Position numbers and translations under genes: made by a program. From Escherichia coli (GTDB lineage: Bacteria; Pseudomonadota; Gammaproteobacteria; Enterobacterales; Enterobacteriaceae), in NCBI RefSeq assembly GCF_001677475.2, contig NZ_CP015229.1: a DNA stretch of 64,000 nt; one strand, given 5' to 3'. Each line of letters starts with the position of its first letter. Position 1 is the first letter of the stretch. This document shows, in pieces, positions 1 to 35,876 of this stretch. A model generated the notes under the pieces. That model saw only the letters and a program-made list of their open reading frames with translations, made no database searches and was not told the origin of the DNA.

Positions 1-537
1 GCATTAGACGGGCAACCGCAGAGCTGGCTTACCAGTTTCCGCTGGGAGAATGGCAACGGCATGTTGACGCAACTCAACCGCCAGTTCCCGACCATTAGCC
101 TGTTAGACATTGGCGCGATTTTAAAACAGGTCGGTCAGGTGCTGGAGCAGGTAAGTCGGGCGCTGGAAGTGATGGTGGTGCTGGTCACCGCCTGCGGTAT
201 GTTGCTGTTGCTGGCGCAGGTGCAGGTGGGAATGCGTCAGCGCCATCAGGAGCTGGTGGTGTGGCGCACTCTCGGTGCGGGCAAAAAACTGCTGCGCACC
301 ACGTTGTGGTGTGAGTTCGCCATGCTCGGGTTTGTTTCTGGCCTGGTGGCCGCAATTGGTGCGGAAACGGCGCTGGCAGTGTTGCAGGCGAAAGTGTTTG
401 ATTTCCCGTGGGAGCCAGACTGGCGATTGTGGATTGTTCTGCCGTGCAGCGGTGCGCTGCTGCTGTCGCTTTGCGGCGGATGGCTGGGCGCGCGACTGGT
501 TAAGGGTAAGGCGCTGTTCAGGCAGTTTGCGGGATGA
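1..537 (+). CDS. ybbP: ABC-transporter permease YbbP, C-terminal part (5' end lies upstream of the window)
   Basis: Open frame runs from nt 1 with no stop until 535-537; track ORF 61..537 is its tail; hydrophobic membrane-protein composition; position upstream of mnmH as in K-12. Confidence 0.8.
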   Translation, partial: ALDGQPQSWLTSFRWENGNGMLTQLNRQFPTISLLDIGAILKQVGQVLEQVSRALEVMVVLVTACGMLLLLAQVQVGMRQRHQELVVWRTLGAGKKLLRTTLWCEFAMLGFVSGLVAAIGAETALAVLQAKVFDFPWEPDWRLWIVLPCSGALLLSLCGGWLGARLVKGKALFRQFAG

Positions 538-553
538 TGACAGGCGTTAGATT

Positions 554-651
<98 letters not shown>

Positions 652-681
652 ATGAACAGTGTGCATTTTGGCAATAAATAT

Positions 682-708
682 GAAACCAACTGTCATGTCG
701 GTTTTTTT
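682..708. terminator. Bidirectional intrinsic terminator hairpin (A-tract / stem / T-tract)
   Basis: gaaaccaac-tgtcat-gtcggttttttt; stem flanked by an A-run upstream and T7 downstream; near-identical to the hairpin at 1161..1189. Confidence 0.6.
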
Positions 709-754
709 AAAGGCCGAAGGTGGTAAACCTTCGGCCTTAGCTACGTTTCCTCAG

Positions 755-838
755 TTATTCAATAAACTGACGGATCAGTTCCAGCAGCGCGATTAGCGCC
801 TTAAGAACGATGAGAACTTTATCGAGAAAAGTTTTCAT
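755..838 (-). CDS. Candidate type I toxin: 27-aa amphipathic peptide MKTFLDKVLIVLKALIALLELIRQFIE (DinQ/TisB-like)
   Basis: ATG at 838-836 (minus), TAA at 757-755; SD AAGGGAG 6 nt upstream; SD lies in perfect palindrome ctcccttaagggag (845..858); peptide matches my recollection of DinQ (shared ALIALLELIR core). Too short for the ORF track. Confidence 0.5.
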   Translation of the reverse strand: MKTFLDKVLIVLKALIALLELIRQFIE

Positions 839-844
839 CCGTTG

Positions 845-858
845 CTCCCTTAAGGGAG
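845..858 (-). promoter_or_regulatory. RBS-sequestering palindrome upstream of the candidate toxin ORF
   Basis: ctcccttaagggag is its own reverse complement; a 5-bp stem / 4-nt loop would occlude the GGGAG Shine-Dalgarno. Confidence 0.5.
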
Positions 859-1063
859 AAAGACAATCACAGCTTACCCTTACGTTGCCTGTAACTATGA
901 TTTTCTTCATGTGCTAGATGAGGACTGCCTCTCTCCAAATTAGAGCACCAGAATCAGCACCACCTGTATCCTGACCAGGACTTAAAAGTACTTTTCCGCA
1001 CTGCGGTAATCCCTTGAGGCAGTATCACTACTAGCGTCGGGATTGTATCGCCAGCATAGCTGT

Positions 1064-1092
1064 TTGAATATGTAGGCATCCTGACTTATAAT
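1064..1092 (+). promoter_or_regulatory. Sigma70-like promoter for the candidate antitoxin sRNA
   Basis: TTGAAT (1064-1069), 17-bp spacer, perfect TATAAT (1087-1092). Confidence 0.5.
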
Positions 1093-1098
1093 TCACTT

Positions 1099-1189
1099 GC
1101 TAGATGAGGACTGTTTCATTTCTGCCCGGAACCACCAAGTCTTGGGCGGAAAAAAAATAAAAAAACCGACTGTCATGTCGGTTTTTTTA
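1099..1189 (+). ncRNA. Candidate antitoxin sRNA (~90 nt), Agr/IstR-like, divergent from the toxin gene
   Basis: Predicted start ~7 nt after the -10; 5' end contains tgctagatgaggactg (1098..1113), identical to 912..927 and so complementary to the minus-strand toxin 5' UTR; ends at the terminator hairpin 1161..1189. Confidence 0.45.
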
Positions 1190-1251
1190 TATCTGTATTC
1201 TGGTGCAACCATTCTGTTCTCACGACAATCGCCGTTTCAGAATACCGCCCA

Positions 1252-2361
<1,110 letters not shown>

Positions 2362-2414
2362 TCAAATCAGCTTGCGCGCTATTTTACGCGCCAACGCGCA
2401 AGGAAACTTGATTT

Positions 2415-3341
2415 TTAACTGCGTGGGTTGCCGAAAATTTCTAAAAATCCGCTGATTTCCGGCCTGCGCTGGGTAAACAAGGTCACAATATCTTCTACCG
2501 CTTTGCCGCTGCCAAATTTGCGCCATGCCAGACTCAATGGCGAAGGAGGGCGCATCGTTGGGATTACCCGGCTGACCAGTTGTTGATTATCGATCATTGA
2601 CTGGCAAAGTGATTTTGGCAAAAAACCAATGCCAACGCCCGCCAGATGGGCGGCGATTTTCGTTTCCATATCGGGAACAATAATCTCTTTTTGCCCCGGC
2701 AATCGCCAGGCAACGCGTTTGGTTAGTGTGCGGGCGCTGTCTTCAATATTGACCGCCGGAAAGCGCCGCAACTGCGCTTCTGTTAGCGGCTCTTCAATGT
2801 TCGCCAGCGGATGATCCGCCGCCATGACAAAGCGCCATTGCACCGATCCTAAGGGATCAAGACTAAAGGTATTTGCCAGCGCCTCGGTTCCCGTGACGCC
2901 GATAGCCAGTGAAAAACCTTCGTACAATAGCGAGTCCCAGACGCCCATATAGATTTGTCGGGAGATGTGAAACTGGGTAAAGGGGTAACGTTCATTCAGC
3001 CACGCCAGCAGTTGGGCGACGGCCTGGGGGTTGTAGAGCAGGTTGTTGATGACAATATTCACCTGGCGTTCCACGCCATCATTCACCTGTTGCAGCTCGC
3101 TGGGCATACTTTCCAGCCAGCTCAGCCAGTCTCTGGCCTGAGAAAGTAGATGCTCGCCAGCCGCTGTCAACGTCACGCTGCGAGTCGTGCGGAAAAACAG
3201 CGCCACTCCGGTATTCTCTTCCAGAAGTTTAATGCGATAACTGATCGTCGCCGTGGTTTTACATAATCGTTCTGCCGCTTTTGAAAAACTTCCTGTTTCA
3301 GCAACCGCAATGAAAGTCCGCAAGGTTTCTGGATCGAACAT
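2415..3341 (-). CDS. allS: LysR-family activator of the allantoin regulon
   Basis: 308-aa ORF with N-terminal LysR HTH; divergent from allA. Confidence 0.92.
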
Positions 3342-3448
3342 CTTCAGGTATCCCCTTTTAAATCAGCAAGTTGCGTGATTTTCTTATCCTCTGATTTATC
3401 AGTATTTTTACATGATAACCCTGTTCAATTTGTGGACTAAATCTAGTT

Positions 3449-3465
3449 TTGGAAAAATATTCCAA
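3449..3465. promoter_or_regulatory. AllR operator-like inverted repeat in the allS-allA intergenic region
   Basis: ttggaaaaatattccaa; same inverted-repeat type recurs upstream of gcl at 4999..5015. Confidence 0.6.
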
Positions 3466-3570
3466 CTTTTGTGTTGATGTTGTTCTCTTAAGGTTTTAGA
3501 TTGCCTGTTATTGAAACCAAGCTGACCGGTCGGCGCTGGTTGAACGGAATTATGTTGCAAGGATAAAAAG

Positions 3571-4053
3571 ATGAAACTTCAGGTATTACCGTTAAGTCAG
3601 GAAGCCTTTAGTGCTTATGGCGATGTAATCGAAACGCAGCAACGGGATTTTTTCCATATTAACAATGGCCTGGTAGAGCGTTACCACGATTTGGCGCTGG
3701 TTGAGATTCTTGAGCAAGACCGTACGCTTATCAGCATTAACCGCGCGCAACCGGCGAATCTGCCGCTGACCATTCACGAACTCGAACGTCATCCGCTGGG
3801 CACTCAGGCCTTTATCCCGATGAAAGGTGAAGTGTTTGTGGTGGTCGTGGCGTTAGGTGACGACAAACCAGACCTGTCAACGCTGCGGGCGTTTATCACC
3901 AACGGTGAACAGGGGGTGAATTACCATCGTAACGTCTGGCATCACCCACTTTTCGCCTGGCAGCGCGTCACCGATTTTCTGACCATCGATCGCGGCGGCA
4001 GTGACAACTGTGATGTTGAAAGTATTCCTGAACAGGAACTCTGTTTTGCGTGA
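3571..4053 (+). CDS. allA: Ureidoglycolate lyase
   Basis: 160-aa ORF; conserved position between allS and allR. Confidence 0.92.
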
Positions 4054-4130
4054 CGCCTGCAACCGACTTGCATAAGATAAACTAATTGTTCATTGTTTAT
4101 GCTCACTTGTAGGTCGGAGTTAACGTAGGT

Positions 4131-4946
4131 ATGACGGAAGTTAGACGGCGCGGCAGGCCAGGACAGGCGGAGCCTGTGGCACAGAAGGGCGCACAGGCGT
4201 TAGAGCGGGGAATTGCGATTCTGCAATATCTGGAAAAAAGTGGGGGAAGTTCGTCGGTTAGCGATATTTCTCTCAATCTGGATTTGCCGCTCTCCACGAC
4301 CTTTCGCTTGCTGAAGGTTTTACAGGCAGCGGATTTTGTCTATCAGGACAGTCAGTTAGGTTGGTGGCATATAGGATTAGGTGTTTTTAACGTCGGTGCG
4401 GCGTACATCCATAACCGCGATGTCCTCTCCGTCGCCGGGCCGTTTATGCGCCGCCTGATGTTACTTTCCGGCGAAACGGTCAATGTCGCGATTCGTAACG
4501 GCAATGAAGCAGTATTAATTGGTCAGTTAGAGTGTAAATCGATGGTCAGGATGTGTGCGCCGCTGGGCAGTCGTCTGCCGCTGCATGCTTCCGGTGCGGG
4601 CAAGGCGCTGCTTTATCCGCTGGCGGAAGAGGAGTTGATGAGCATCATTCTGCAAACCGGTTTGCAGCAGTTTACGCCAACGACGCTTGTGGATATGCCC
4701 ACCTTGCTGAAGGACCTGGAACAAGCGCGTGAACTGGGCTATACCGTAGATAAAGAAGAGCATGTTGTAGGCCTGAATTGCATAGCTTCAGCAATTTACG
4801 ATGATGTAGGTAGTGTTGTTGCCGCTATCTCCATCTCCGGGCCTTCATCAAGACTGACAGAAGATCGTTTTGTCAGTCAGGGTGAGCTGGTCAGAGACAC
4901 CGCCCGCGATATCAGCACGGCGTTGGGACTGAAAGCACATCCATAG
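4131..4946 (+). CDS. allR: IclR-family repressor of the allantoin regulon
   Basis: 271-aa ORF with IclR-type HTH N-terminus and effector domain. Confidence 0.92.
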
Positions 4947-4998
4947 TGTCTGTCGCATCCTGCTCTGCGGAGCGGGTTTTTTTGACAAAATTTGAAAG

Positions 4999-5015
4999 TT
5001 GGAAAATTTTTCCAA
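4999..5015. promoter_or_regulatory. AllR operator-like inverted repeat upstream of gcl
   Basis: ttggaaaatttttccaa, 20 bp upstream of the gcl ATG. Confidence 0.6.
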
Positions 5016-5035
5016 TTAATAGAGGTAGGAATAAA

Positions 5036-6817
5036 ATGGCAAAAATGAGAGCCGTTGACGCGGCAATGTATGTGCTGGAGAAAGAAGGTATCACCACCGC
5101 CTTCGGCGTTCCGGGAGCTGCAATCAATCCGTTCTACTCAGCGATGCGTAAGCACGGCGGTATTCGTCACATTCTGGCGCGTCATGTGGAAGGTGCTTCG
5201 CACATGGCGGAAGGTTATACCCGCGCAACGGCAGGGAATATCGGCGTATGTCTGGGAACCTCGGGACCAGCAGGCACTGACATGATCACCGCGCTCTATT
5301 CCGCTTCTGCTGATTCCATTCCTATTCTGTGCATTACCGGCCAGGCTCCGCGCGCCCGTCTGCATAAAGAAGATTTCCAGGCCGTTGATATTGAAGCAAT
5401 TGCTAAACCGGTCAGCAAAATGGCGGTTACAGTACGTGAAGCGGCGCTGGTGCCTCGTGTGCTGCAACAGGCATTTCACCTGATGCGTTCTGGTCGTCCG
5501 GGTCCGGTACTGGTGGATTTACCGTTCGACGTACAGGTTGCGGAAATCGAGTTTGATCCTGACATGTACGAACCGCTGCCGGTCTACAAACCTGCTGCCA
5601 GCCGTATGCAGATCGAAAAAGCTGTAGAAATGTTAATCCAGGCCGAACGTCCGGTGATTGTTGCCGGGGGCGGGGTAATCAATGCTGACGCAGCTGCACT
5701 GTTACAACAGTTTGCTGAACTGACCAGCGTTCCGGTGATCCCAACGCTGATGGGCTGGGGCTGTATCCCGGACGATCATGAACTGATGGCCGGGATGGTG
5801 GGTCTGCAAACCGCGCATCGTTACGGTAACGCAACGTTGCTGGCGTCCGACATGGTGTTTGGTATCGGTAACCGTTTTGCGAACCGTCATACCGGTTCGG
5901 TAGAGAAATACACCGAAGGGCGCAAAATCGTTCATATCGATATTGAGCCGACGCAAATTGGCCGCGTGCTGTGTCCGGATCTCGGCATTGTTTCTGATGC
6001 TAAAGCGGCGCTGACGCTGCTGGTTGAAGTGGCGCAGGAGATGCAAAAAGCGGGTCGTCTGCCGTGTCGTAAAGAATGGGTCGCCGACTGCCAGCAGCGC
6101 AAACGCACTTTGCTGCGCAAAACCCACTTCGACAATGTGCCGGTGAAACCGCAGCGCGTGTATGAAGAGATGAACAAAGCCTTTGGTCGCGATGTTTGTT
6201 ATGTCACCACCATTGGTCTGTCACAAATCGCTGCGGCACAAATGCTGCATGTCTTTAAAGACCGCCACTGGATCAACTGTGGGCAGGCAGGCCCGCTGGG
6301 CTGGACCATTCCGGCGGCGCTGGGCGTGTGTGCCGCTGATCCAGAGCGCAATGTGGTGGCGATTTCCGGTGACTTCGACTTCCAGTTCCTGATTGAAGAA
6401 TTAGCTGTTGGCGCACAGTTCAACATTCCGTACATCCATGTACTGGTCAATAACGCCTATCTGGGTCTGATTCGCCAGTCGCAGCGCGCGTTTGATATGG
6501 ATTACTGCGTACAGCTCGCGTTCGAAAATATTAACTCCAGCGAAGTGAACGGTTACGGCGTCGACCACGTAAAAGTAGCGGAAGGTTTAGGTTGTAAAGC
6601 GATTCGCGTTTTCAAACCGGAAGATATAGCACCAGCCTTTGAACAGGCGAAAGCCTTAATGGCGCAATATCGGGTACCGGTAGTCGTGGAAGTTATTCTC
6701 GAGCGTGTGACCAATATTTCGATGGGCAGCGAACTGGATAATGTAATGGAATTTGAAGATATCGCCGATAACGCAGTGGATGCACCGACTGAAACCTGCT
6801 TCATGCACTATGAATAG
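5036..6817 (+). CDS. gcl: Glyoxylate carboligase (tartronate-semialdehyde synthase)
   Basis: ThDP-enzyme sequence; start placed at the internal ATG ([18 protein letters not shown]...) giving 593 aa, with an RBS-like aggtagg upstream; track ORF 4946..6817 extends further upstream in frame. Confidence 0.93.
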
Positions 6818-6829
6818 GGGAGATAAATA

Positions 6830-7606
6830 ATGTTACGTTTCTCTGCTAATTTATCAATGTTATTTGGTGAATATGATTTTCTCGCCCGTTTTGAGAAAGC
6901 TGCGCAGTGTGGTTTTCGCGGCGTTGAATTTATGTTTCCTTATGACTACGACATTGAAGAATTAAAACAGGTGCTGGCGAGTAATAAACTCGAGCATACG
7001 CTGCATAATTTACCTGCGGGTGACTGGGCGGCGGGCGAGCGGGGTATTGCCTGTATTCCTGGCCGTGAAGAAGAGTTTCGTGATGGCGTAGCAGCGGCGA
7101 TTCGTTATGCTCGTGCGCTGGGTAATAAAAAAATCAACTGTCTGGTCGGTAAAACGCCGGCGGGTTTCAGCAGTGAACTGATTCACGCAACGCTTGTGGA
7201 AAACCTGCGTTATGCCGCGAATATGTTGATGAAAGAAGATATTTTATTACTGATTGAACCTATCAACCATTTCGATATTCCTGGTTTCCATCTCACCGGA
7301 ACTCAGCAGGCGCTGAAACTGATTGATGATGTAGGCTGCTGCAATTTGAAAATTCAGTATGACATTTATCATATGCAGCGGATGGAAGGTGAATTAACCA
7401 ACACCATGATCCAATGGGTCGATAAAATTGGTCACCTGCAAATCGCCGATAATCCACATCGCGGCGAACCGGGAACCGGAGAAATTAATTACGATTATCT
7501 CTTTAAGGTAATTGAACATTCTGACTACAACGGTTGGGTTGGCTGTGAATATAAACCCAGAACCACCACGGAAGCCGGTTTAGGCTGGATGAAACCGTAC
7601 CGTTAA
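6830..7606 (+). CDS. hyi: Hydroxypyruvate isomerase
   Basis: 258-aa ORF, TIM-barrel sugar-isomerase-like; operon position after gcl. Confidence 0.92.
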   Translation: MLRFSANLSMLFGEYDFLARFEKAAQCGFRGVEFMFPYDYDIEELKQVLASNKLEHTLHNLPAGDWAAGERGIACIPGREEEFRDGVAAAIRYARALGNKKINCLVGKTPAGFSSELIHATLVENLRYAANMLMKEDILLLIEPINHFDIPGFHLTGTQQALKLIDDVGCCNLKIQYDIYHMQRMEGELTNTMIQWVDKIGHLQIADNPHRGEPGTGEINYDYLFKVIEHSDYNGWVGCEYKPRTTTEAGLGWMKPYR

Positions 7607-7705
7607 AACGTAACGCTGTTCAGACAATGCTTTTTTAGGCCGCTACGTCGGCAGGGGATCGTGTTGTCTGAATTCAGGAAAAGCGACATTTAAAAGAGGC
7701 TAAAT

Positions 7706-8584
7706 ATGAAACTGGGATTTATTGGCTTAGGCATTATGGGTACTCCGATGGCCATTAATCTGGCGCGCGCCGGTCATCAACTGCATGTCACAACTATTGG
7801 TTCGGTTGCTGATGAATTACTGTCACTCGGTGCCGTCAGTGTTGAAACTGCGCGCCAGGTAACAGAAGCGTCAGACATCATTTTTATTATGGTGCCGGAT
7901 ACGCCACAGGTTGAAGAAGTTCTGTTTGGTGAAAATGGTTGTACCAAAGCCTCGCTGAAGGGCAAAACCATTGTTGATATGAGCTCCATTTCCCCGATTG
8001 AAACTAAACGTTTCGCTCGTCAGGTGAATGAACTAGGTGGCGATTATCTCGATGCGCCAGTCTCCGGCGGTGAAATCGGCGCGCGTGAAGGGACGTTGTC
8101 GATTATGGTTGGCGGTGACGAAGCGGTATTTGAACGTGTTAAACCGCTGTTTGAATTGCTCGGTAAAAATATCACCCTCGTGGGCGGTAACGGCGACGGT
8201 CAAACCTGCAAAGTGGCAAATCAGATTATCGTGGCGCTCAATATTGAAGCGGTTTCTGAAGCATTGTTGTTTGCTTCAAAAGCCGGTGCGGACCCGGTAC
8301 GTGTGCGCCAGGCGCTGATGGGCGGCTTTGCTTCCTCACGTATTCTGGAAGTTCACGGTGAGCGCATGATTAAACGCACCTTTAATCCAGGTTTCAAAAT
8401 TGCGCTGCACCAGAAAGATCTCAACCTGGCACTGCAAAGTGCGAAAGCACTGGCGCTGAACCTGCCAAACACTGCGACCTGCCAGGAGTTATTTAATACC
8501 TGTGCGGCAAACGGTGGCAGCCAGTTGGATCACTCTGCGTTAGTGCAGGCGCTGGAATTAATGGCTAACCATAAACTGGCCTGA
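7706..8584 (+). CDS. glxR: Tartronate semialdehyde reductase
   Basis: 292-aa ORF; N-terminal Rossmann motif GFIGLGIMG; 3-hydroxyisobutyrate-dehydrogenase family. Confidence 0.93.
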   Translation: MKLGFIGLGIMGTPMAINLARAGHQLHVTTIGSVADELLSLGAVSVETARQVTEASDIIFIMVPDTPQVEEVLFGENGCTKASLKGKTIVDMSSISPIETKRFARQVNELGGDYLDAPVSGGEIGAREGTLSIMVGGDEAVFERVKPLFELLGKNITLVGGNGDGQTCKVANQIIVALNIEAVSEALLFASKAGADPVRVRQALMGGFASSRILEVHGERMIKRTFNPGFKIALHQKDLNLALQSAKALALNLPNTATCQELFNTCAANGGSQLDHSALVQALELMANHKLA

Positions 8585-8752
8585 TACCCGCAATAAAAAT
8601 GGCCGATATCAGAAAATGAATCGGCCAGCAATATTAAAAAAGAAAGCAGCCAAAGATGTTGCTTCAGTATTAAAAATAATATTTTTATTTTATTTGTTCC
8701 TCATAGCTAGATTAAAACAGCGTTATTCGATACGTGAAATTAAGAGGGATTT

Positions 8753-10207
8753 ATGGAACATCAGAGAAAACTATTCCAGCAACGCGGCTATAGCGAAGAT
8801 CTACTGCCGAAAACGCAAAGTCAGCGGACCTGGAAAACATTTAACTATTTTACCTTATGGATGGGTTCGGTTCATAACGTTCCCAATTATGTGATGGTTG
8901 GCGGCTTTTTTATCCTCGGCTTGTCTACCTTTAGTATTATGCTGGCAATTATCCTCAGTGCCTTTTTCATTGCCGCGGTAATGGTATTAAACGGTGCTGC
9001 GGGCAGTAAATACGGCGTACCGTTTGCCATGATCCTGCGTGCTTCTTACGGCGTACGTGGCGCACTGTTTCCCGGATTATTAAGAGGCGGTATTGCTGCC
9101 ATTATGTGGTTTGGCCTGCAATGTTACGCGGGGTCACTGGCCTGCTTGATTCTGATTGGCAAAATCTGGCCGGGATTTTTGACTCTCGGTGGTGATTTCA
9201 CTCTGTTAGGCCTTTCTCTACCGGGCTTAATTACTTTCTTACTCTTCTGGCTGGTCAACGTTGGTATTGGTTTTGGCGGTGGCAAAGTTTTAAATAAATT
9301 CACTGCCATTCTTAACCCGTGCATCTATATCGTTTTCGGCGGTATGGCGATTTGGGCGATTTCGCTGGTCGGGCTCGGTCCAATCTTTGACTACATTCCG
9401 AGCGGTATTCAGAAAGCAGAAAACAGTGGCTTCCTGTTCCTGGTGGTGATTAACGCGGTAGTTGCGGTCTGGGCGGCACCGGCGGTGAGCGCATCCGACT
9501 TTACGCAAAACGCCCACTCGTTTCGTGAGCAAGCGCTGGGGCAAACGCTGGGTTTAGTTGTGGCCTATATTCTGTTTGCGGTCGCCGGGGTATGTATTAT
9601 TGCCGGAGCCAGTATTCACTACGGCGCTGACACCTGGAACGTGCTGGATATTGTTCAGCGTTGGGACAGCCTGTTTGCCTCGTTCTTTGCGGTACTGGTT
9701 ATTCTGATGACGACTATCTCCACTAACGCCACCGGTAATATTATTCCGGCCGGTTATCAGATTGCCGCTATTGCACCGACGAAACTGACCTATAAAAACG
9801 GCGTACTGATTGCCAGTATTATCAGCCTGCTGATCTGCCCGTGGAAATTAATGGAAAATCAGGACAGTATTTATCTGTTCCTCGATATTATCGGCGGAAT
9901 GCTGGGTCCGGTAATTGGTGTAATGATGGCTCATTATTTTGTGGTGATGCGTGGGCAAATTAACCTTGATGAACTATACACCGCACCTGGCGATTATAAA
10001 TATTACGATAACGGTTTTAACCTCACCGCGTTTTCAGTAACTCTGGTGGCCGTTATTTTATCTCTTGGCGGTAAGTTTATTCACTTTATGGAACCGTTAT
10101 CGCGTGTTTCATGGTTTGTCGGCGTCATCGTCGCCTTTGCGGCCTACGCCTTATTAAAGAAACGTACAACAGCAGAAAAAACAGGAGAGCAAAAAACCAT
10201 AGGTTAA
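8753..10207 (+). CDS. ybbW: Allantoin permease (NCS1 family)
   Basis: 484-aa polytopic membrane protein; position between glxR and allB. Confidence 0.9.
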   Translation: MEHQRKLFQQRGYSEDLLPKTQSQRTWKTFNYFTLWMGSVHNVPNYVMVGGFFILGLSTFSIMLAIILSAFFIAAVMVLNGAAGSKYGVPFAMILRASYGVRGALFPGLLRGGIAAIMWFGLQCYAGSLACLILIGKIWPGFLTLGGDFTLLGLSLPGLITFLLFWLVNVGIGFGGGKVLNKFTAILNPCIYIVFGGMAIWAISLVGLGPIFDYIPSGIQKAENSGFLFLVVINAVVAVWAAPAVSASDFTQNAHSFREQALGQTLGLVVAYILFAVAGVCIIAGASIHYGADTWNVLDIVQRWDSLFASFFAVLVILMTTISTNATGNIIPAGYQIAAIAPTKLTYKNGVLIASIISLLICPWKLMENQDSIYLFLDIIGGMLGPVIGVMMAHYFVVMRGQINLDELYTAPGDYKYYDNGFNLTAFSVTLVAVILSLGGKFIHFMEPLSRVSWFVGVIVAFAAYALLKKRTTAEKTGEQKTIG

Positions 10208-10266
10208 TTAATCCCGATATTGAACATTGAGTTAAAAACCAATCTGTATTTTACAAGGAGTTTGTT

Positions 10267-11628
10267 ATGTCTTTTGATTTAATCATTAAAAACGGCACCG
10301 TTATTTTAGAAAACGAAGCTCGCGTTGTAGATATCGCCGTTAAAGGCGGAAAAATTGCTGCTATCGGTCAGGATCTGGGTGATGCAAAAGAAGTTATGGA
10401 TGCGTCTGGTCTGGTGGTTTCGCCGGGCATGGTTGATGCGCACACCCATATTTCTGAACCGGGTCGTAGCCACTGGGAAGGTTATGAAACCGGTACTCGC
10501 GCAGCAGCAAAAGGTGGTATCACCACCATGATCGAAATGCCGCTCAACCAACTGCCTGCAACGGTTGACCGCGCTTCAATTGAACTGAAGTTCGATGCCG
10601 CTAAAGGCAAGCTGACTATCGATGCGGCACAACTCGGTGGCCTGGTGTCTTACAACATTGATCGTCTGCATGAGTTGGATGAAGTGGGCGTTGTCGGCTT
10701 CAAATGCTTCGTTGCGACCTGTGGCGATCGCGGTATCGACAACGACTTCCGTGATGTAAATGACTGGCAGTTCTTCAAAGGCGCGCAGAAGCTGGGCGAA
10801 CTGGGGCAGCCGGTGCTGGTGCACTGCGAAAACGCACTGATCTGTGACGCACTGGGCGAAGAAGCGAAACGTGAAGGTCGCGTAACTGCCCATGACTATG
10901 TGGCTTCGCGTCCGGTATTTACCGAAGTGGAAGCGATTCGCCGCGTACTGTACCTGGCGAAAGTTGCCGGTTGCCGTCTGCACATTTGCCATATCAGCAG
11001 CCCGGAAGGTGTTGAAGAAGTGACTCGTGCACGTCAGGAAGGTCAGGACGTTACCTGTGAATCCTGCCCGCATTACTTTGTACTGGATACCGATCAGTTC
11101 GAAGAAATCGGTACTCTGGCGAAGTGTTCACCGCCGATCCGCGATCTGGAAAACCAGAAAGGCATGTGGGAAAAACTGTTTAACGGTGAAATCGACTGCC
11201 TGGTTTCCGACCACTCACCATGCCCTCCGGAAATGAAAGCCGGCAACATCATGGAAGCATGGGGCGGTATTGCCGGTCTGCAAAACTGTATGGACGTGAT
11301 GTTCGATGAAGCGGTACAGAAACGCGGAATGTCTCTGCCAATGTTCGGCAAATTAATGGCGACTAACGCAGCAGATATTTTCGGTCTGCAGCAAAAAGGC
11401 CGTATCGCCCCAGGAAAAGATGCCGACTTCGTCTTCATTCAGCCGAATAGCAGCTATGTTCTTACCAATGACGATCTGGAATATCGCCACAAAGTCAGCC
11501 CGTATGTTGGCCGTACCATTGGCGCGCGTATCACGAAAACCATCTTACGTGGTGATGTGATTTACGACATTGAACAGGGCTTCCCTGTTGCGCCGAAAGG
11601 TCAATTTATCCTTAAACATCAGCAGTAA
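10267..11628 (+). CDS. allB: Allantoinase
   Basis: 453-aa ORF; amidohydrolase metal-binding motifs (DAHTH, HxH). Confidence 0.93.
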
Positions 11629-11684
11629 TCTGGCCCCTGCAATGCCCGTCCTTGCGGCGGGCATTCTCCGGTTAAGGTGTGTTT

Positions 11685-12986
11685 ATGTTCAATTTTGCAG
11701 TCAGCCGCGAAAGCCTGTTATCAGGATTTCAGTGGTTTTTCTTTATTTTTTGCAACACGGTTGTGGTTCCTCCTACGCTACTTTCTGCTTTTCAGTTGCC
11801 GCAAAGTAGCCTGCTTACGCTCACGCAATATGCTTTTCTTGCTACCGCACTGGCCTGCTTCGCTCAGGTGTTTTGCGGTCATCGTCGCGCTATTATGGAA
11901 GGGCCAGGTGGCCTGTGGTGGGGAACCATCCTTACTATCACCCTTGGCGAAGCATCGCGCGGGACACCGATCAACGATATCGCTACCAGTCTGGCGGTGG
12001 GGATTGCACTCTCCGGCGTGCTGACGATGTTGATTGGTTTTAGCGGATTAGGCCATCGCCTGGCACGGTTATTTACGCCGTCGGTGATGGTCCTGTTTAT
12101 GTTGATGCTGGGCGCGCAGCTGACCACTATCTTTTTCAAAGGTATGCTCGGGCTGCCGTTTGGCATAGCCGACCCAAATTTTAAAATTCAGTTACCGCCG
12201 TTCGCGCTCTCGGTGGCGGTGATGTGCCTGGTACTGGGGATGATTATCTTCCTGCCGCAACGTTTTGCCCGTTATGGCCTGCTGGTCGGCACCATAACCG
12301 GCTGGTTGTTGTGGTACTTTTGCTTTCCTGCTTCGCACTCGCTCTCCGGTGAGTTGCACTGGCAGTGGTTCCCGCTCGGCAGTGGCGGTGCGTTGTCGCC
12401 GGGAATTATTCTGACGGCGGTGATTACAGGTCTGGTAAATATCAGCAATACCTACGGTGCGATTCGGGGCACGGATGTTTTTTATCCGCAGCAGGGCGCG
12501 GGGAATACGCGTTATCGTCGTAGCTTTGTGGCGACCGGATTTATGACGCTGATAACCGTACCGCTGGCGGTAATTCCATTTTCACCGTTTGTTTCATCCA
12601 TTGGTTTATTAACCCAGACTGGCGATTACACGCGACGTTCGTTTATTTATGGCAGCGTTATTTGCCTGCTGGTTGCGCTGGTTCCGGCACTCACGCGACT
12701 ATTTTGCAGTATCCCTTTACCAGTGAGTAGCGCGGTCATGCTGGTTTCTTATCTGCCTTTACTCTTTTCCGCGCTGGTGTTTAGCCAGCAAATAACCTTT
12801 ACCGCTCGCAATATTTATCGACTCGCATTGCCGTTATTTGTCGGCATATTTTTAATGGCATTACCGCCTGTGTATCTGCAAGACCTTCCATTAACGCTTC
12901 GTCCTCTGCTCAGTAACGGCTTACTGGTCGGAATTTTACTGGCTGTTCTTATGGATAATCTTATTCCGTGGGAACGCATCGAATAA
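11685..12986 (+). CDS. ybbY: Putative purine/uracil permease family transporter
   Basis: Membrane protein; start set at the ATG (MFNFAVS...) giving 433 aa; track ORF begins 6 nt earlier at GTG. Confidence 0.88.
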   Translation: MFNFAVSRESLLSGFQWFFFIFCNTVVVPPTLLSAFQLPQSSLLTLTQYAFLATALACFAQVFCGHRRAIMEGPGGLWWGTILTITLGEASRGTPINDIATSLAVGIALSGVLTMLIGFSGLGHRLARLFTPSVMVLFMLMLGAQLTTIFFKGMLGLPFGIADPNFKIQLPPFALSVAVMCLVLGMIIFLPQRFARYGLLVGTITGWLLWYFCFPASHSLSGELHWQWFPLGSGGALSPGIILTAVITGLVNISNTYGAIRGTDVFYPQQGAGNTRYRRSFVATGFMTLITVPLAVIPFSPFVSSIGLLTQTGDYTRRSFIYGSVICLLVALVPALTRLFCSIPLPVSSAVMLVSYLPLLFSALVFSQQITFTARNIYRLALPLFVGIFLMALPPVYLQDLPLTLRPLLSNGLLVGILLAVLMDNLIPWERIE

Positions 12987-13007
12987 TTTGTTGAAAAAGG
13001 ATTGATA

Positions 13008-14153
13008 ATGAAGATTGTCATTGCGCCAGACTCTTTTAAAGAGAGCTTAAGTGCAGAAAAATGTTGTCAGGCAATTAAAGCCGGGTTTTCGACCCTCTTT
13101 CCCGATGCGCACTATATCTGTTTGCCGATAGCGGATGGCGGCGAAGGGACGGTGGATGCGATGGTCGCCGCGACGGGCGGCAACATCGTGAAGCTTGAAG
13201 TCTGCGGGCCGATGGGCGAAAAAGTGAATGCTTTTTATGGCCTTACCGGCGACGGGAAAACAGCGGTGATTGAGATGGCGGCAGCAAGTGGCCTGATGCT
13301 GGTCGCGCCTGAAAAGCGTAATCCGTTGCTGGCCTCCAGTTTTGGTACGGGGGAGTTAATTCGTCATGCGCTGGATAACGGCATTCGCCATATTATTCTC
13401 GGCATTGGCGGTAGTGCGACGGTCGACGGCGGTATGGGCATGGCGCAGGCGCTTGGTGTGCGTTTCCTTGATGCCGACGGTCAGGTGCTGGTGGCTAACG
13501 GCGGCAATTTAGCGCGCGTGGCAAGCATTGAGATGGATGAATGCGATCCGCGTCTGGCGAACTGCCATATTGAAGTAGCATGTGACGTTGATAACCCGCT
13601 GGTAGGGGCACGCGGCGCGGCGGCGGTGTTTGGCCCGCAAAAAGGGGCAACGCCGGAGATGGTCGAAGAACTGGAACAGGGGCTGCAAAATTACGCCCGT
13701 GTTTTACAACAGCAAACTGAAATGAATGTCTGCCAGATGGCGGGCGGCGGCGCGGCGGGCGGTATGGGTATTGCGGCGGCGGTATTCCTCAATGCGGATA
13801 TTAAACCGGGCATTGAGATTGTGTTGAATGCGGTCAATCTTGCGCAGGCGGTGCAGGGCGCAGCACTGGTGATCACCGGGGAAGGGCGCATCGACTCGCA
13901 AACGGCAGGCGGTAAAGCTCCGCTGGGCGTTGCGTCGGTGGCGAAGCAGTTTAATGTACCGGTGATTGGGATTGCTGGCGTATTGGGTGATGGCGTGGAA
14001 GTGGTGCACCAGTACGGCATTGATGCGGTATTCAGCATTTTGCCACGTCTGGCACCTTTAACCGAAGTGCTCGCCAGCGGTGAAACCAATCTCTTCAACA
14101 GTGCGCGAAATATTGCCTGCGCCATTAAAATAGGTCAGGGAATTAAAAACTGA
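13008..14153 (+). CDS. glxK: Glycerate kinase II
   Basis: 381 aa from the ATG ([14 protein letters not shown]...); glycerate-kinase family sequence. Confidence 0.92.
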
Positions 14154-14194
14154 CTCTTACCTTTAAAGTGGATGCGATTTATTTCGTATAAGAG

Positions 14195-14320
14195 CGCAGT
14201 GCTCATGCCGGATGCGGCATGAGTACTATATCCTTCCTGAAAATCGCGCAAATTCTATATATTGTAGAGATCATGTAGGCCTGATAAGCGAAGCGCATCA
14301 GGCAATGTTACAAAAAAAGC
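14195..14320. repeat. REP elements and hairpin in the glxK-allE intergenic region
   Basis: gccggatgcggcatgag... and tgtaggcctgataagcgaagcgcatcaggca, followed by hairpin gccacggtataaaccgtggc. Confidence 0.7.
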
Positions 14321-14380
14321 CACGGTATAAACCGTGGCAAAATCCAACATAGCTAAAAATAATCAGGCGAGTGGTATGAC

Positions 14381-15166
14381 TTAAATCTCTACGTCGCGGT
14401 TGCAATCTTTCGAGTAAATATAGCTGAACGCTTCACCACGCCCTACGCCATAACCAGCCTGTAAAGAATAAGCGCCCATAAAGATGTAATCGCCTTTTTT
14501 CACCGGAATCCAGTTATTGTCAAGGTTATAAACCCCCTGACCGGAAAGAATATAGGCACCGTGTTCCTGAACATGTGTTTCGATATAACCGTGGCTGGCA
14601 CCTGGCGCAAAAGAGAGGATATGCATGTTCATATCAAAACCTAACTCTTTGGGCAGAAAATCCAGCAGGATCACATCATCCATACCTTCATAATGAATGC
14701 GTTCCAGTTCGCTGGCATTGCCAGAAACCAGCCACGGCGCATGACCTTCTACCGGAACATAGCGACGCTTATATAAAAAGATTTGGCTGTCTTCGGCCTG
14801 GGCGTTAACAAAAGTCATTAAGGAGCCTGGCGGGCAATAAAGATAGCCACCTTCACTTAAGGTAAATGTTTTCCCTTCGGCTTTGGCAGTGATATTTCCA
14901 GAGATCACATACAGGAACGTTTCAATGCCTTCGCCACCGAAGCCCTGTTGGTTGCCGCCGTTTTGATGCAGTGTGACCAGATAATCAACAAAAGAGGCAC
15001 CCAGCTTTGGCGTGGAGAGGATTGTCGCGTCACAATTTTCAAAGCCCGGAATAATATTTTTTACCAGACCGTCTGGTGTTAACAGTGCGAAATTACCGTG
15101 TTTAACAATCGCACGGTTAGCCAGTAAATCATCGCGGTAACCGGTGACGTTATTTAAATATCCCAT
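14381..15166 (-). CDS. allE: Cupin-family (S)-ureidoglycine aminohydrolase
   Basis: 261-aa ORF; position upstream of allC/allD (ylbA). Confidence 0.88.
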   Translation of the reverse strand: MGYLNNVTGYRDDLLANRAIVKHGNFALLTPDGLVKNIIPGFENCDATILSTPKLGASFVDYLVTLHQNGGNQQGFGGEGIETFLYVISGNITAKAEGKTFTLSEGGYLYCPPGSLMTFVNAQAEDSQIFLYKRRYVPVEGHAPWLVSGNASELERIHYEGMDDVILLDFLPKELGFDMNMHILSFAPGASHGYIETHVQEHGAYILSGQGVYNLDNNWIPVKKGDYIFMGAYSLQAGYGVGRGEAFSYIYSKDCNRDVEI

Positions 15167-15176
15167 TTATGACTCC

Positions 15177-16412
15177 TTATTTCTGCCAGGCAAGTTGATA
15201 AAGCATGAGTGCCAACGTTTTGACCCCTTCGGCAAGGTCGGTAATATTGGTGCGTTCCGCCGGGTTATGGCTGATCCCGTTGATGCTGGGGATAAAAATC
15301 ATACAGGTTGGTACGCGAGGCGCGAAAATTTGCGCGTCGTGCCCGGCACCACTGTGCATCACCCGGTAATTCAGTTTTTCGCTTTCACACAATTCTGTCA
15401 GGGTGGCGACCAGGTCCTTATTCATCGGCACGGGTTCTTCGTCCATCCATAAATCAATATCAATACCAATGTCCATTTCATCGCAAATCGCCCGCATGTC
15501 GTTTTCTAACTGCTGGGTGAAATCGCGCAGCACGGCAGCGTCGGTATGACGACAATCAATGGTGAACGTGGTTTTACCTGGTACCACATTCACCGTATTC
15601 GGACGCGGCTCCACCTTGCCAAAGGTAAGCACCAGCGGGTCGCCCATCTTTTTCGCTTTTTCGATCGACTGATGGCAAATGCGACTGAAAGCGTAAACCG
15701 TATCACGACGATAACCCATCGGCGTGGTGCCTGCATGGTTTGATTCGCCGTTCAGCGTCACCGTATAGCGACGTTGCCCGACAATTGCATTCACCACGCC
15801 AATTGACTGCCCGTTACTTTCCAGCACACAGCCCTGTTCGATATGCAGTTCGACAAAGGCTTTAATATCCTGACGCGGAGTTAGCGGGGCGTCCGGCAGA
15901 GTAAATCCGCAAGCCTTCATCGCATCGACAAACCTATTTCCTTTGGCATCACAGATATTCCGTACGTCGTCAGGATTCGCCAGCCCAAAGATATTTTTAC
16001 TGCCCCAGAAGACATACGGGAAGCGGCTGCCTTCTTCTTCTGCCATCGCCACCACTTCGACCGTACGTAGCGGCGCGCCGTATTGCGTTTTCAGCCAGTC
16101 AATTGCCAGCCAGGCCGCCAGCGCGCCGAATTGCCCGTCGAGGTTACCGCCGTTAACCACGGTATCGATATGCGAACCGCTCAGAACCACTTCCTGTGGA
16201 TATTCGGTGCCATTCAGGCGACCGTATAAATTTCCCACTTCATCGAAATGTGTTTCCAGCCCGCTTGCTGCCATTCTTTTTTTAAATTGCTGTTGGGTTT
16301 CCAGCCATTCCGGCGAATAAAGTAAACGGGTCATCCCACCCGTAGGGTCAGCGCCAAAAGAGGAAAGCCAGGGCAGCGTTTCTTCTATGGCTTGACGGAA
16401 ATGTGTAATCAT
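15177..16412 (-). CDS. allC: Allantoate amidohydrolase
   Basis: M20-peptidase-like; start set at the internal ATG (MITHFRQAIEE...) giving 411 aa. Confidence 0.92.
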   Translation of the reverse strand: MITHFRQAIEETLPWLSSFGADPTGGMTRLLYSPEWLETQQQFKKRMAASGLETHFDEVGNLYGRLNGTEYPQEVVLSGSHIDTVVNGGNLDGQFGALAAWLAIDWLKTQYGAPLRTVEVVAMAEEEGSRFPYVFWGSKNIFGLANPDDVRNICDAKGNRFVDAMKACGFTLPDAPLTPRQDIKAFVELHIEQGCVLESNGQSIGVVNAIVGQRRYTVTLNGESNHAGTTPMGYRRDTVYAFSRICHQSIEKAKKMGDPLVLTFGKVEPRPNTVNVVPGKTTFTIDCRHTDAAVLRDFTQQLENDMRAICDEMDIGIDIDLWMDEEPVPMNKDLVATLTELCESEKLNYRVMHSGAGHDAQIFAPRVPTCMIFIPSINGISHNPAERTNITDLAEGVKTLALMLYQLAWQK

Positions 16413-16433
16413 AAGAAAGTCCTGTCTCAATAA

Positions 16434-35799: not shown

Positions 35800-35876
35800 C
35801 GCGCCCTTAGCTCAGTTGGATAGAGCAACGACCTTCTAAGTCGTGGGCCGCAGGTTCGAATCCTGCAGGGCGCGCC
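35800..35876 (+). tRNA. argU: tRNA-Arg (anticodon UCU)
   Basis: gcgcccttagctcagttggatagagcaacgaccttctaagtcgtgggccgcaggttcgaatcctgcagggcgcgcca; cloverleaf with TCT anticodon; promoter TTGACT...TATAAT upstream. Confidence 0.97.

What the first reader, a model, noticed from the sequence alone, without database searches (positions are those of the whole stretch)
682..1189. Unannotated candidate type I toxin-antitoxin module in the ybbP-mnmH intergenic region
Seen in sequence: a minus-strand 27-codon ORF (838..755) encodes MKTFLDKVLIVLKALIALLELIRQFIE, a single amphipathic helix. Its SD sits inside a perfect palindrome (845..858), and a near-consensus sigma70 promoter on the plus strand (1064..1092) would give a ~90-nt transcript ending at the terminator 1161..1189. 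Established knowledge: a small membrane peptide, a structured 5' UTR and a divergent sRNA is the architecture of tisB/istR-1, dinQ/agrB, shoB/ohsC and zor/orz. The peptide matches DinQ as I recall it (shared ALIALLELIR core) and lies outside the K-12 dinQ locus (arsR-gor). Inference: a second DinQ-family module, possibly undescribed at this locus.
Basis: partly seen in the sequence, partly recalled or inferred. Interest (0 to 1): 0.78.

Follow-up and report, generated by a model that had tools for sequence, protein, structure and literature searches.

The report
Second DinQ/AgrB toxin-antitoxin copy

Summary
The 27-aa ORF (838..755, minus strand) passes NCBI's DinQ model (40.9 bits, cut-off 30). 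The plus-strand RNA at 1100-1190 passes Rfam's AgrB threshold (50.3 bits, threshold 40). The whole module aligns end to end with K-12 dinQ-agrA. So the reading "second DinQ-family type I module" is right.

The claim "unannotated, possibly undescribed" is not right. RefSeq annotates this CDS as dinQ between ybbP and mnmH, and 1332 of 5426 complete E. coli genomes carry the module. Canonical gor-arsR dinQ is in 5422 of 5426, so nearly all carriers have both. The dinQ-like (dql) family was published in 2016, and a plasmid member was validated in 2025.

What I could add:
- The module is a 575-bp insert. Other strains have an empty site or an Rhs island there.
- It has one cognate sRNA with its own seed sequence.
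- It lacks the LexA operator of canonical dinQ, so the "damage-inducible" label is probably wrong for this copy.
- About 15% of carriers appear to have lost the toxin's start through a 108-bp deletion but kept the sRNA.

Expression and toxicity were not tested. Interest is low.

The parts
666..1240 (.). Accessory insert of about 575 bp that carries the whole module. It is absent from the 'empty' ybbP-mnmH site of strain Nissle.
   Evidence: Alignment A3: Nissle homology runs to window ~665 and resumes at ~1241. The annotation shows a 140-bp ybbP-mnmH spacer in Nissle. K-12, BL21 and O157 diverge right after the ybbP stop, and K-12 and O157 carry an Rhs element there.
683..709 (+). Orphan AgrB-type terminator copy. 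It is a 27-nt direct repeat of the sRNA terminator at 1163-1189 and lies just 3' of the toxin gene.
   Evidence: Direct repeat family D1, 96% identical, spacing 480. On the plus strand it reads as a hairpin plus T7, and the scan also flags a terminator-like site on the minus strand. That it is a remnant of a neighbouring module's sRNA is inference.
710..738 (-). 3' hairpin (terminator) of the toxin mRNA, homologous to the dinQ terminator hairpin.
   Evidence: Inverted repeat I3: 12-bp arms, 100% complementary. It aligns with the K-12 dinQ terminator. The same hairpin followed by a short U-tract is seen in plasmid homologues.
755..838 (-). Toxin ORF of 27 aa (DinQ paralogue), MKTFLDKVLIVLKALIALLELIRQFIE, including the stop codon.
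   Evidence: PGAP annotates the identical CDS in L001. The 27-aa start is preferred by analogy with the experimentally defined 27-aa DinQ peptide V (PMC3567139).
845..858 (-). SD-sequestering hairpin CUCCC-UUAA-GGGAG, corresponding to elements 3:4 of the dinQ model. The SD GGGAG is at 849..845.
   Evidence: Perfect palindrome. It aligns with the K-12 CUCCAU...AUGGAG hairpin. In the predicted full-length mRNA the SD has P(unpaired) = 0.013.
913..936 (-). sRNA target site in the toxin 5' UTR (mRNA nt ~100-123). It also serves as 'element 2', which pairs with either the mRNA 5' end or element 3.
   Evidence: Direct repeat D2, 906-927 versus 1092-1113. Duplex prediction gives -47.0 kcal/mol against a shuffle mean of -22.6, sd 2.9. 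It is homologous to dinQ G88-A119.
1016..1035 (-). Predicted 5' end of the primary toxin transcript ('element 1', GCUAGUAGUGAUACUGCCUC). It pairs with the sRNA target site and so locks the full-length mRNA.
   Evidence: MFE structure of the full-length mRNA. The +1 at G1035 is inferred from homology to K-12: -10, then 6 nt, then GYUAG.
1042..1068 (-). Inferred toxin promoter: -35 TTCAAA (1068..1063), 15-nt spacer, -10 TACAAT (1047..1042). There is no LexA operator.
   Evidence: Relaxed promoter scan. The -10 is positionally homologous to K-12 TATGAT and to IncX TATAAT. No CTG-N10-CAG occurs in window 1-18000. The best LexA-like site matches 5/6 core and 11/20 overall, against 6/6 and 15/20 in K-12.
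1064..1092 (+). sRNA promoter TTGAAT-17-TATAAT, back to back with the toxin promoter's -35.
1099..1190 (+). AgrB-family antisense sRNA of about 91 nt: an antisense 5' end that is largely unpaired in the prediction, an internal hairpin, then an intrinsic terminator at 1157-1190.
   Evidence: Rfam RF02891, 50.3 bits against a gathering score of 40. The fold is -32.8 kcal/mol with the same domain layout as AgrB, plus a weak extra hairpin in the 5' 22 nt.
816..923 (.). Segment lost in a natural 108-bp deletion allele, between the microhomologies GATGAGAACT and GATGAGGACT. The deletion removes the start codon, the SD and part of the sRNA target, and keeps the sRNA gene.
   Evidence: Alignment A2 with strain PCP06238, where no CDS is annotated. 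1332 genomes hold the module but only 1135 hold this segment.

Best explanation
This is an accessory chromosomal paralogue of the E. coli dinQ/agrB type I toxin-antitoxin system, carried on a ~575-bp insert between ybbP and mnmH.

The minus strand gives a ~330-nt mRNA whose 3' end encodes a 27-aa amphipathic membrane peptide. As made, the mRNA is translationally inert. Its 5' end (nt 1-20) pairs with nt ~104-123, and the SD sits in the CUCCC/GGGAG hairpin. Removal of the 5' leader would free nt ~100-123 to pair with the left arm of the SD hairpin, which would open the SD.

The divergently transcribed ~91-nt AgrB-type sRNA pairs through its 5' end with that same stretch: a 24-nt duplex that starts with 15 perfect Watson-Crick pairs. 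Binding would re-close the SD hairpin and, by analogy with AgrB, create an RNase III substrate, so the toxin would not be made.

Unlike canonical dinQ, this copy has no LexA operator. It is therefore probably not SOS-induced and resembles the constitutive plasmid dql modules.

Shown here: homology, architecture, complementarity and distribution. Inferred: transcription start sites, mRNA processing, toxicity and SOS independence.
For: Identity:
- NCBIfam toxin_DinQ scores 40.9 bits (cut-off 30); K-12 DinQ scores 54.0.
- BLASTP gives 15/19 identities to DinQ.
- Rfam AgrB scores 50.3 bits against a gathering score of 40.
- The module aligns end to end with K-12 dinQ-agrA: terminator, ORF, SD hairpin, target site, promoter region and sRNA.

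Pairing:
- The sRNA 5' 33 nt against the toxin mRNA gives -47.0 kcal/mol. Shuffled controls give -22.6 +/- 2.9, with a best of -34.7.
- Non-cognate pairs are weaker: AgrB against this mRNA -27.2, and this sRNA against dinQ -35.5.
- K-12 references: AgrB:dinQ -58.2, AgrA:dinQ -42.7.
- Four paralogous loci each have their own seed, matched between sRNA and target: K-12 GTTCTTATCTAA, window GTCCTCATCTAG, IncI1 dqlB GTCTGTATCTAA, IncX CTGTCTATACCTAAC.

Structural switch:
- Predicted P(unpaired) of the SD is 0.013 in the full-length mRNA, 0.15-0.22 after 5' truncation, and 0.012 with the sRNA site blocked (0.087 in one of three truncations tested).
- The K-12 control gives 0.083, 0.216 and 0.019, which fits the published model.

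Paralogy:
- Canonical dinQ is in 5422 of 5426 genomes.
- This copy is in 1332 genomes, all on chromosomes, and carrier records show two matching places.

No LexA operator.

Family mechanism shown experimentally elsewhere: dinQ/agrB (PMC3567139, PMC5066626) and dqlB/agrB on pOXA-48, including compensatory seed mutations (PMC12365149).
Against: - There is no transcript, toxicity or rescue data for this copy.
- The toxin promoter is weak by consensus (15-nt spacer), and the standard scan missed it.
- The cognate duplex (-47.0) is weaker than AgrB:dinQ (-58.2) and only modestly stronger than AgrA:dinQ (-42.7). AgrA does not protect against DinQ in K-12.
- By ungapped 31-nt counting, the cognate pair (20 WC + 6 GU) barely exceeds the non-cognate pairs.
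- About 15% of carrier genomes appear to have deleted the toxin's 5' part, so the toxin is dispensable.
- Folding predictions are thermodynamic models only.
Confidence: 0.8

Rival explanations
1. The module is a silent or decaying relic. The toxin is not effectively expressed, the single sRNA is an AgrA-like degenerate copy, and the module persists neutrally until it is deleted.
For: - The inferred toxin promoter is weak, with a 15-nt spacer.
- The sRNA sits at the agrA position relative to the toxin.
- Its duplex energy (-47.0) is closer to the non-protective AgrA:dinQ pair (-42.7) than to AgrB:dinQ (-58.2).
- About 197 of 1332 carriers lack the toxin's 5' segment.
- Other strains have an empty site or an Rhs island there.
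Against: - 1133 of 1135 intact copies are at least 99% identical across the start codon, SD and target segment.
- The ORF, the SD hairpin, element 1 and a 15-nt perfect seed are all retained together.
- The seed has diverged from K-12 at matched positions in both the sRNA and its target. That is expected under selection for pairing, not under decay.
- Seeds of 18-21 nt are sufficient in other type I systems (my recollection of the zorO/orzO and tisB/istR-1 literature, not checked here).
Confidence: 0.15
2. It is simply dinQ, the SOS-inducible, LexA-regulated gene, as the PGAP product name 'damage-inducible type I toxin DinQ' implies.
For: It hits the NCBIfam 'equivalog' model NF041472 above the cut-off, and RefSeq names it dinQ.
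Against: - Canonical dinQ-agrAB at gor-arsR is present in 5422 of 5426 genomes, so nearly all carriers of this copy also have it.
- The two loci are only ~70% identical in DNA.
- The K-12 LexA operator TACTGTATGATTATCCAGTT overlaps the -10 and the +1. The homologous window sequence GGCGATACAATCCCGACGCT has neither CTG nor CAG at the core positions.
- There is no CTG-N10-CAG anywhere in the module.
Confidence: 0.03
3. The ORF, palindrome and promoter coincide by chance in an intergenic region, and there is no gene.
For: Short ORFs and promoter-like hexamers are common. The promoter scan expects about 1 hit in this region by chance.
Against: Two independent curated models, one for the protein and one for the RNA, are both passed. 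Homology to an experimentally characterised locus runs end to end.
Confidence: 0.01

Closest known systems
dinQ/agrAB of E. coli K-12 (gor-arsR locus; Weel-Sneve 2013, Kristiansen 2016)
   Same: - A 27-aa single-helix peptide with the ALIALLELIR core and the same polar stripe: D3/G10/E17/Q24 in DinQ, D6/K13/E20/E27 here.
- A long 5' UTR with an SD hairpin.
- A divergent AgrB-type sRNA whose 5' end is antisense to the UTR.
- The same predicted three-state logic: locked, open, and re-closed by the sRNA.
   Different: - Different locus, on an accessory 575-bp insert.
- About 70% DNA identity.
- ATG start instead of GTG, a 2-aa N-terminal shift and a C-terminus shorter by 3 aa.
- Lys where DinQ has Gly10.
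- One sRNA instead of two.
- A private seed differing at 4 positions in the 16-nt core.
- Element 1 pairs with the seed part of the target site rather than with the part upstream of it.
- No LexA operator.
- A shorter and weaker antisense duplex.
dql (dinQ-like) genes dqlA and dqlB of Enterobacteriaceae (Kristiansen 2016); DqlB/agrB addiction module of pOXA-48 (PMC12365149)
   Same: - Homologous peptide, 5' UTR and AgrB-type sRNA.
- No LexA box in the plasmid copies examined.
- Locus-specific seeds.
- IncX plasmid copies encode MGAFIDKAIM(I/V)LRVLIALLELIRMFF. This shares the window peptide's N-terminal xxFxDK, its basic residue at the DinQ Gly10 position, and its short C-terminus.
   Different: - This copy is chromosomal only: 0 of 1338 places lie on plasmids of complete E. 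coli genomes.
- It fails the DqlB model (24.5 bits, cut-off 35).
- It is about 70% identical in DNA to the plasmid copies.
- Whether it is one of the 14 dql sequences in Kristiansen's Fig. 3 could not be checked, because the figure and supplements are not held.
tisB/istR-1 and zorO/orzO type I systems
   Same: A divergent, non-overlapping sRNA targets a long 5' UTR, and the primary transcript is inert and is activated by 5' processing (PMC3567139 discussion; PMC8594479).
   Different: No sequence membership. Rfam OrzO-P matches only the terminator, at 24.1 and 21.5 bits against a gathering score of 60, and no IstR hit was listed. One paper notes 71-74% similarity between part of the zor 5' UTR and plasmid dinQ-type UTRs (PMC11264685); I did not test this here.

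Membership tests
DinQ/AgrB type I TA family (dinQ plus dql) | Small hydrophobic peptide matching the DinQ profile above the curated cut-off | tested here: met
   NF041472 scores 40.9 bits (cut-off 30); K-12 DinQ scores 54.0. BLASTP gives 15/19 identities, E = 3e-08.
DinQ/AgrB type I TA family (dinQ plus dql) | AgrB-type sRNA encoded divergently, upstream of the toxin gene and not overlapping it | tested here: met
   Rfam RF02891 at 1100-1190 (+) scores 50.3 bits against a gathering score of 40. It has its own promoter and terminator. It lies 261 nt from the toxin start codon, against 275 nt for agrA in K-12.
DinQ/AgrB type I TA family (dinQ plus dql) | The 5' end of the sRNA is antisense to the toxin 5' UTR at the position homologous to dinQ G88-A119 | tested here: met
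   The duplex is 24 nt (15 contiguous Watson-Crick pairs, then 4 WC, 4 GU and 1 mismatch), at -47.0 kcal/mol against shuffles at -22.6 +/- 2.9. The position is homologous in alignment A1.
DinQ/AgrB type I TA family (dinQ plus dql) | 5' UTR with four elements that form mutually exclusive pairings (1:2 and 3:4 closed; 2:3 open) | tested here: met
   This was met in silico only. The full-length MFE pairs nt 1-20 with nt 104-123 and closes the SD hairpin. After 5' truncation, element 2 pairs with element 3 and SD accessibility rises from 0.013 to 0.15-0.22. Blocking the sRNA site returns it to 0.012. The K-12 control behaves the same way.
DinQ/AgrB type I TA family (dinQ plus dql) | Peptide is toxic and depolarises the membrane; the sRNA neutralises it | not testable with these tools
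   This needs induction and rescue experiments. It has been shown for DinQ (PMC3567139) and for DqlB (PMC12365149) only.
dinQ proper (orthologue of K-12 b4613, 'damage-inducible') | LexA operator overlapping the promoter (SOS regulation) | tested here: not met
   No CTG-N10-CAG occurs in the module. The homologous position reads GGCGATACAATCCCGACGCT, against K-12 TACTGTATGATTATCCAGTT.
dinQ proper (orthologue of K-12 b4613, 'damage-inducible') | Located between gor and arsR, with tandem agrA and agrB | tested here: not met
   It lies between ybbP and mnmH with a single sRNA. The gor-arsR locus is present separately in 5422 of 5426 genomes.
DqlB (NCBIfam NF041473) | Score at or above the curated cut-off of the DqlB model | tested here: not met
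   It scores 24.5 bits against a cut-off of 35. A plasmid DqlB scores 67.0.
DqlA (Kristiansen 2016 subgroup) | Amino-acid signature that separates DqlA from DqlB in their Fig. 3B | not testable with these tools
   The figure and supplements are not held as text, and no DqlA model appeared in the NCBIfam results. The resemblance to the IncX-plasmid peptides makes membership plausible but does not prove it.
ZorO/OrzO | sRNA matching Rfam OrzO-P at or above the gathering score | tested here: not met
   It scores 24.1 and 21.5 bits against a gathering score of 60, over the terminator only.

The most novel reading that the evidence does not exclude
The most novel reading is that the ybbP-mnmH copy is an SOS-uncoupled, plasmid-type DinQ paralogue with a privately matched antitoxin, and that its sRNA has a role of its own.

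This would fit the antitoxin-only alleles, which appear in about 15% of carriers after a 108-bp deletion of the toxin start. One such role would be chromosomal 'anti-addiction' or cross-regulation of incoming plasmid dql toxins or of canonical dinQ.

The insert would also be one of three alternative occupants (empty, TA module, Rhs island) of a recombination hot-spot. The orphan terminator at 683-709 would mark its origin from a tandem array of modules.
Probability: 0.1. Interest if true: 0.4.

Novelty: already known. Interest (0 to 1): 0.15.

Why it matters
It matters only modestly.

The finding shows that about a quarter of sequenced E. coli carry two DinQ-type toxins, each with its own matched antitoxin. 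It also shows that RefSeq transfers the name "damage-inducible DinQ" to a paralogue that lacks the LexA operator, while leaving its antitoxin RNA unannotated in the record I examined.

That is useful for annotation quality. It is also relevant to anyone studying SOS-linked persistence or membrane-toxin redundancy in non-K-12 strains, because deleting "dinQ" in such strains would leave a second copy in place.

It does not reveal a new kind of system.

Tried and rejected
- **LexA operator search.** The exact core pattern found nothing in the module. A relaxed scan found only a 5/6-core, 11/20 site, CTGTTTGAATATGTAG at 1060-1075. I rejected it as an operator but did not compute a heterology index.
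- **Other Rfam families over the sRNA.** STnc370, OrzO-P, RNAI, MicC and others all fell far below their gathering scores and matched mainly the terminator. Rejected.
- **Full-length duplexfold of sRNA against mRNA.** It produced over-extended helices of about 90 nt. I replaced it with the 5' 33 nt of the sRNA.
- **Ungapped 31-nt complementarity counts.** These did not separate cognate from non-cognate pairs well. Contiguity and energy do.
- **MAFFT alignment A1, promoter region.** It misaligns the promoter and +1 region by about 20 nt. The homologous -10 and +1 were fixed by hand from the '-10, 6 nt, GYUAG' register shared with K-12 and the IncX copies.
- **First K-12 folding control.** It used the wrong GGAG and was redone.
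- **Supplementary files.** Those of Kristiansen 2016 and T1TAdb are not held, so I could not check whether this exact locus is among their listed dql loci.
- **Literature searches.** Searches for dinQ with ybbP, mnmH, ybbB or selU, and for the peptide string, found nothing relevant.
- **Top 'plasmid' hits to the module.** The three best are records of 1.2-4.9 Mb, apparently chromosomal sequence filed as plasmids. I disregarded them.
- **Expensive scans.** I judged a species-wide genome or metagenome scan unnecessary for the verdict and did not run one.
Full report
**1. The observation**

The window starts in the 3' end of ybbP, which stops at 537. REP-type elements follow at 546-657. The convergent gene mnmH runs 2346..1252 on the minus strand.

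- The ORF 838..755 (minus strand) encodes MKTFLDKVLIVLKALIALLELIRQFIE. It is nested in a 51-aa ORF that starts at ATG 910.
- The perfect palindrome CTCCCTTAAGGGAG lies at 845-858. Its minus-strand 3' half is the SD, 6 nt before the ATG.
- The plus-strand promoter TTGAAT-17-TATAAT lies at 1064-1092, and the terminator at 1157-1190.

**2. What it is**

- The peptide passes NCBI's curated DinQ model: NF041472, 40.9 bits, cut-off 30. K-12 DinQ scores 54.0. It fails the DqlB model at 24.5 bits against a cut-off of 35.
- BLASTP against K-12 DinQ gives 15/19 identities.
- The plus-strand RNA at 1100-1190 passes Rfam AgrB: RF02891, 50.3 bits, gathering score 40. This holds even when the whole 64-kb window is searched.
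- A strand-matched alignment with the K-12 gor-arsR region shows homology across the whole module: toxin terminator hairpin, ORF, SD hairpin, antisense target, promoter region and sRNA. The window's single sRNA lies at the agrA position.

The module is therefore a paralogue of dinQ/agrAB.

**3. It is already annotated and the family is published**

- Megablast of 640-1250 finds the locus in 1332 of 5426 complete E. coli genomes, always chromosomal. The same 84-nt CDS between ybbP and mnmH is annotated 'dinQ: damage-inducible type I toxin DinQ' in all 21 full-length records listed.
- The exact 27-aa and 51-aa sequences are NCBI proteins with that name, each seen on at least 1000 contigs.
- The canonical gor-arsR locus is in 5422 of 5426 genomes. 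Carriers of the ybbP-mnmH copy show two matching places, with the second at about 70% identity. Nearly all carriers therefore have both.
- Kristiansen et al. 2016 (PMC5066626) described 'dql' (dinQ-like) genes, grouped into dqlA and dqlB, on chromosomes and plasmids of Enterobacteriaceae. They noted conserved 5' UTR elements and that some strains carry dql genes together with dinQ.
- T1TAdb predicted the antisense RNAs for those loci (PMC8594479).
- DqlB/agrB of pOXA-48 was validated experimentally in 2025. The work showed toxicity, rescue by agrB, compensatory seed mutations and post-segregational killing (PMC12365149).

Some things remain undescribed as far as I could see. The sRNA gene is not annotated in the PGAP record I examined. 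No paper in the searchable library links dinQ or dql to the ybbP/mnmH site or contains the peptide string. I could not read Kristiansen's Fig. 3 or the supplements, so the locus may be among their 14 dql sequences.

**4. Anatomy and likely mechanism**

*Transcription start and promoter.* I placed the published dinQ coordinates on K-12 using SD G184-G187. This puts +1 at the G of GTTAGC, 7 nt after the -10 TATGAT, which lies inside the LexA operator TACTGTATGATTATCCAGTT. The window has the same register: -10 TACAAT (1047..1042), then CCCGAC, then G1035 of GCTAG. The IncX plasmid copies have it too: TATAAT, CAGCAC, GTTAGC. The inferred -35, TTCAAA with a 15-nt spacer, lies back to back with the sRNA's -35.

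*No LexA operator.* There is no LexA operator at the homologous position. No CTG-N10-CAG occurs anywhere in window 1-18000.

*Locked state.* The predicted ~330-nt mRNA folds so that nt 1-20 (GCUAGUAGUGAUACUGCCUC) pair with nt 104-123, and the SD is closed in CUCCC/GGGAG, with P(unpaired) = 0.013.

*Open state.* Truncating 15-45 nt from the 5' end lets GGAGAGAGG pair with CUUUCUCC. SD accessibility rises to 0.15-0.22.

*Re-closed by the sRNA.* Blocking the antisense site returns accessibility to 0.012 (0.087 for one of the three truncations tested). The K-12 control gives 0.083, 0.216 and 0.019, which fits the published +1, +44 and +44:AgrB states.

*sRNA pairing.* The sRNA 5' end pairs with mRNA nt 100-123 (window 913-936). 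There are 15 contiguous Watson-Crick pairs, then 4 WC, 4 GU and 1 mismatch. The energy is -47.0 kcal/mol, against shuffles at -22.6 +/- 2.9 with a best of -34.7.

| Pair | Energy (kcal/mol) |
|---|---|
| This sRNA : this mRNA | -47.0 |
| AgrB : this mRNA | -27.2 |
| This sRNA : dinQ | -35.5 |
| AgrB : dinQ (K-12) | -58.2 |
| AgrA : dinQ (K-12) | -42.7 |

*Private seeds.* Four paralogous loci each carry their own seed, shared by sRNA and target:

| Locus | Seed |
|---|---|
| K-12 dinQ/agrB | GTTCTTATCTAA |
| Window | GTCCTCATCTAG |
| IncI1 dqlB | GTCTGTATCTAA |
| IncX 'dinQ' | CTGTCTATACCTAAC |

This is natural covariation and supports cognate pairing.

*The peptide.* It keeps DinQ's polar stripe. 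DinQ has D3/G10/E17/Q24, and this peptide has D6/K13/E20/E27, with Lys replacing Gly. It is more amphipathic than DinQ, with a hydrophobic moment of 0.43 against 0.21.

All steps beyond sequence and prediction are inferred from the family: transcription, 5' processing, RNase III cleavage and toxicity.

**5. Population context**

- The module is a ~575-bp insert at window 666-1240. Strain Nissle has an empty 140-bp ybbP-mnmH spacer whose homology breaks at exactly these points.
- K-12, BL21 and O157 diverge right after the ybbP stop, and K-12 and O157 carry an Rhs element there.
- Some carriers have extra REP units.
- Of the 1332 carriers, only 1135 retain window 817-922. The alleles I examined have a clean 108-bp deletion (816-923) between the microhomologies GATGAGAACT and GATGAGGACT. 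It removes the start codon, the SD and part of the target but keeps the sRNA gene, and no CDS is annotated there. The figure of about 197 such genomes is inferred from the difference in counts. I did not inspect each genome.
- A 27-nt copy of the sRNA terminator (683-709) lies just beyond the toxin's 3' hairpin and inside the insert. This is what the junction of two tandem modules would look like. That origin is speculation.

**6. Rivals**

- *Silent, decaying relic.* This cannot be excluded without expression data. It is favoured by the weak promoter, the intermediate duplex strength and the deletion alleles. It is disfavoured by identity of at least 99% in 1133 of 1135 intact copies and by co-retention of every functional element.
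- *Orthologous SOS-regulated dinQ.* Rejected.
- *Chance.* Rejected.

**7. Verdict**

The feature is real and was interpreted correctly as a DinQ-family type I toxin-antitoxin module. It is not new: the toxin is annotated in RefSeq and the family is published. The residual points are the probable SOS independence, which makes the product name misleading, the unannotated antitoxin RNA, and the insertion and deletion polymorphism. These are minor. Interest is about 0.15.

Noticed in passing
window 57279-58130: There are two tandem hok/sok type I modules. Rfam sok matches 57326-57481 and 57829-57985 (84-87 bits, gathering score 59). Each has a Hok-type ORF ending in [50 protein letters not shown]. 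Each is preceded by a perfect LexA-box-like CTGTATAAATAAACAG, at 57279 and 57782. This looks like a duplicated, possibly SOS-regulated hokE-type locus.
   Followed up: partly
window 683-709 versus 1163-1189: A 27-nt direct repeat (96% identical) of the AgrB-type terminator brackets the module, with a spacing of 480 bp. The left copy has no sRNA body upstream of it and lies inside the 575-bp insert. It may be a remnant of a neighbouring module in a former tandem array.
   Followed up: partly
window 816-923; L003 (strain PCP06238): A natural 108-bp deletion between 10-nt microhomologies removes the toxin start codon, the SD and part of the sRNA target, and keeps the sRNA gene. About 197 of 1332 carrier genomes lack this segment.
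   Followed up: yes
window 540-1250 versus L004, L006, L007, L008: The ybbP-mnmH spacer has at least three alternative states among E. coli: empty (140 bp, Nissle), the DinQ-type module (with a variable number of REP units), and an Rhs element (K-12 and O157).
   Followed up: partly
L001, L008, L009, L010 annotations: PGAP uses inconsistent start codons for DinQ-family toxins: 27 aa in L001, 51 aa in L008, and 78 aa in the IncX plasmids L009 and L010. The AgrB-type sRNA is not annotated in the PGAP chromosome record examined (L001), although it passes the Rfam gathering score there and in the plasmid loci.
   Followed up: partly
L005 757-844 and 1003-1090 (IncI1-type plasmid of ETEC6335): The plasmid dqlB locus carries two AgrB-type sRNA genes, as K-12 does. 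Only the proximal one matches the dqlB target well (25 WC + 3 GU of 31, against 17 + 6 for the distal one). A sok RNA lies next to them at 584-725.
   Followed up: partly
window 546-657: REP/BIME-type elements lie directly after the ybbP stop, with weak Rfam matches to naRNA4 and ES036, below or near their thresholds. They are expanded by two extra units in strain Ec-U9-2.
   Followed up: no
window 14308-14374 and 35801-35874: There is an STnc480 sRNA match (87.6 bits, gathering score 72) and a tRNA gene. Both are unrelated to the finding.
   Followed up: no
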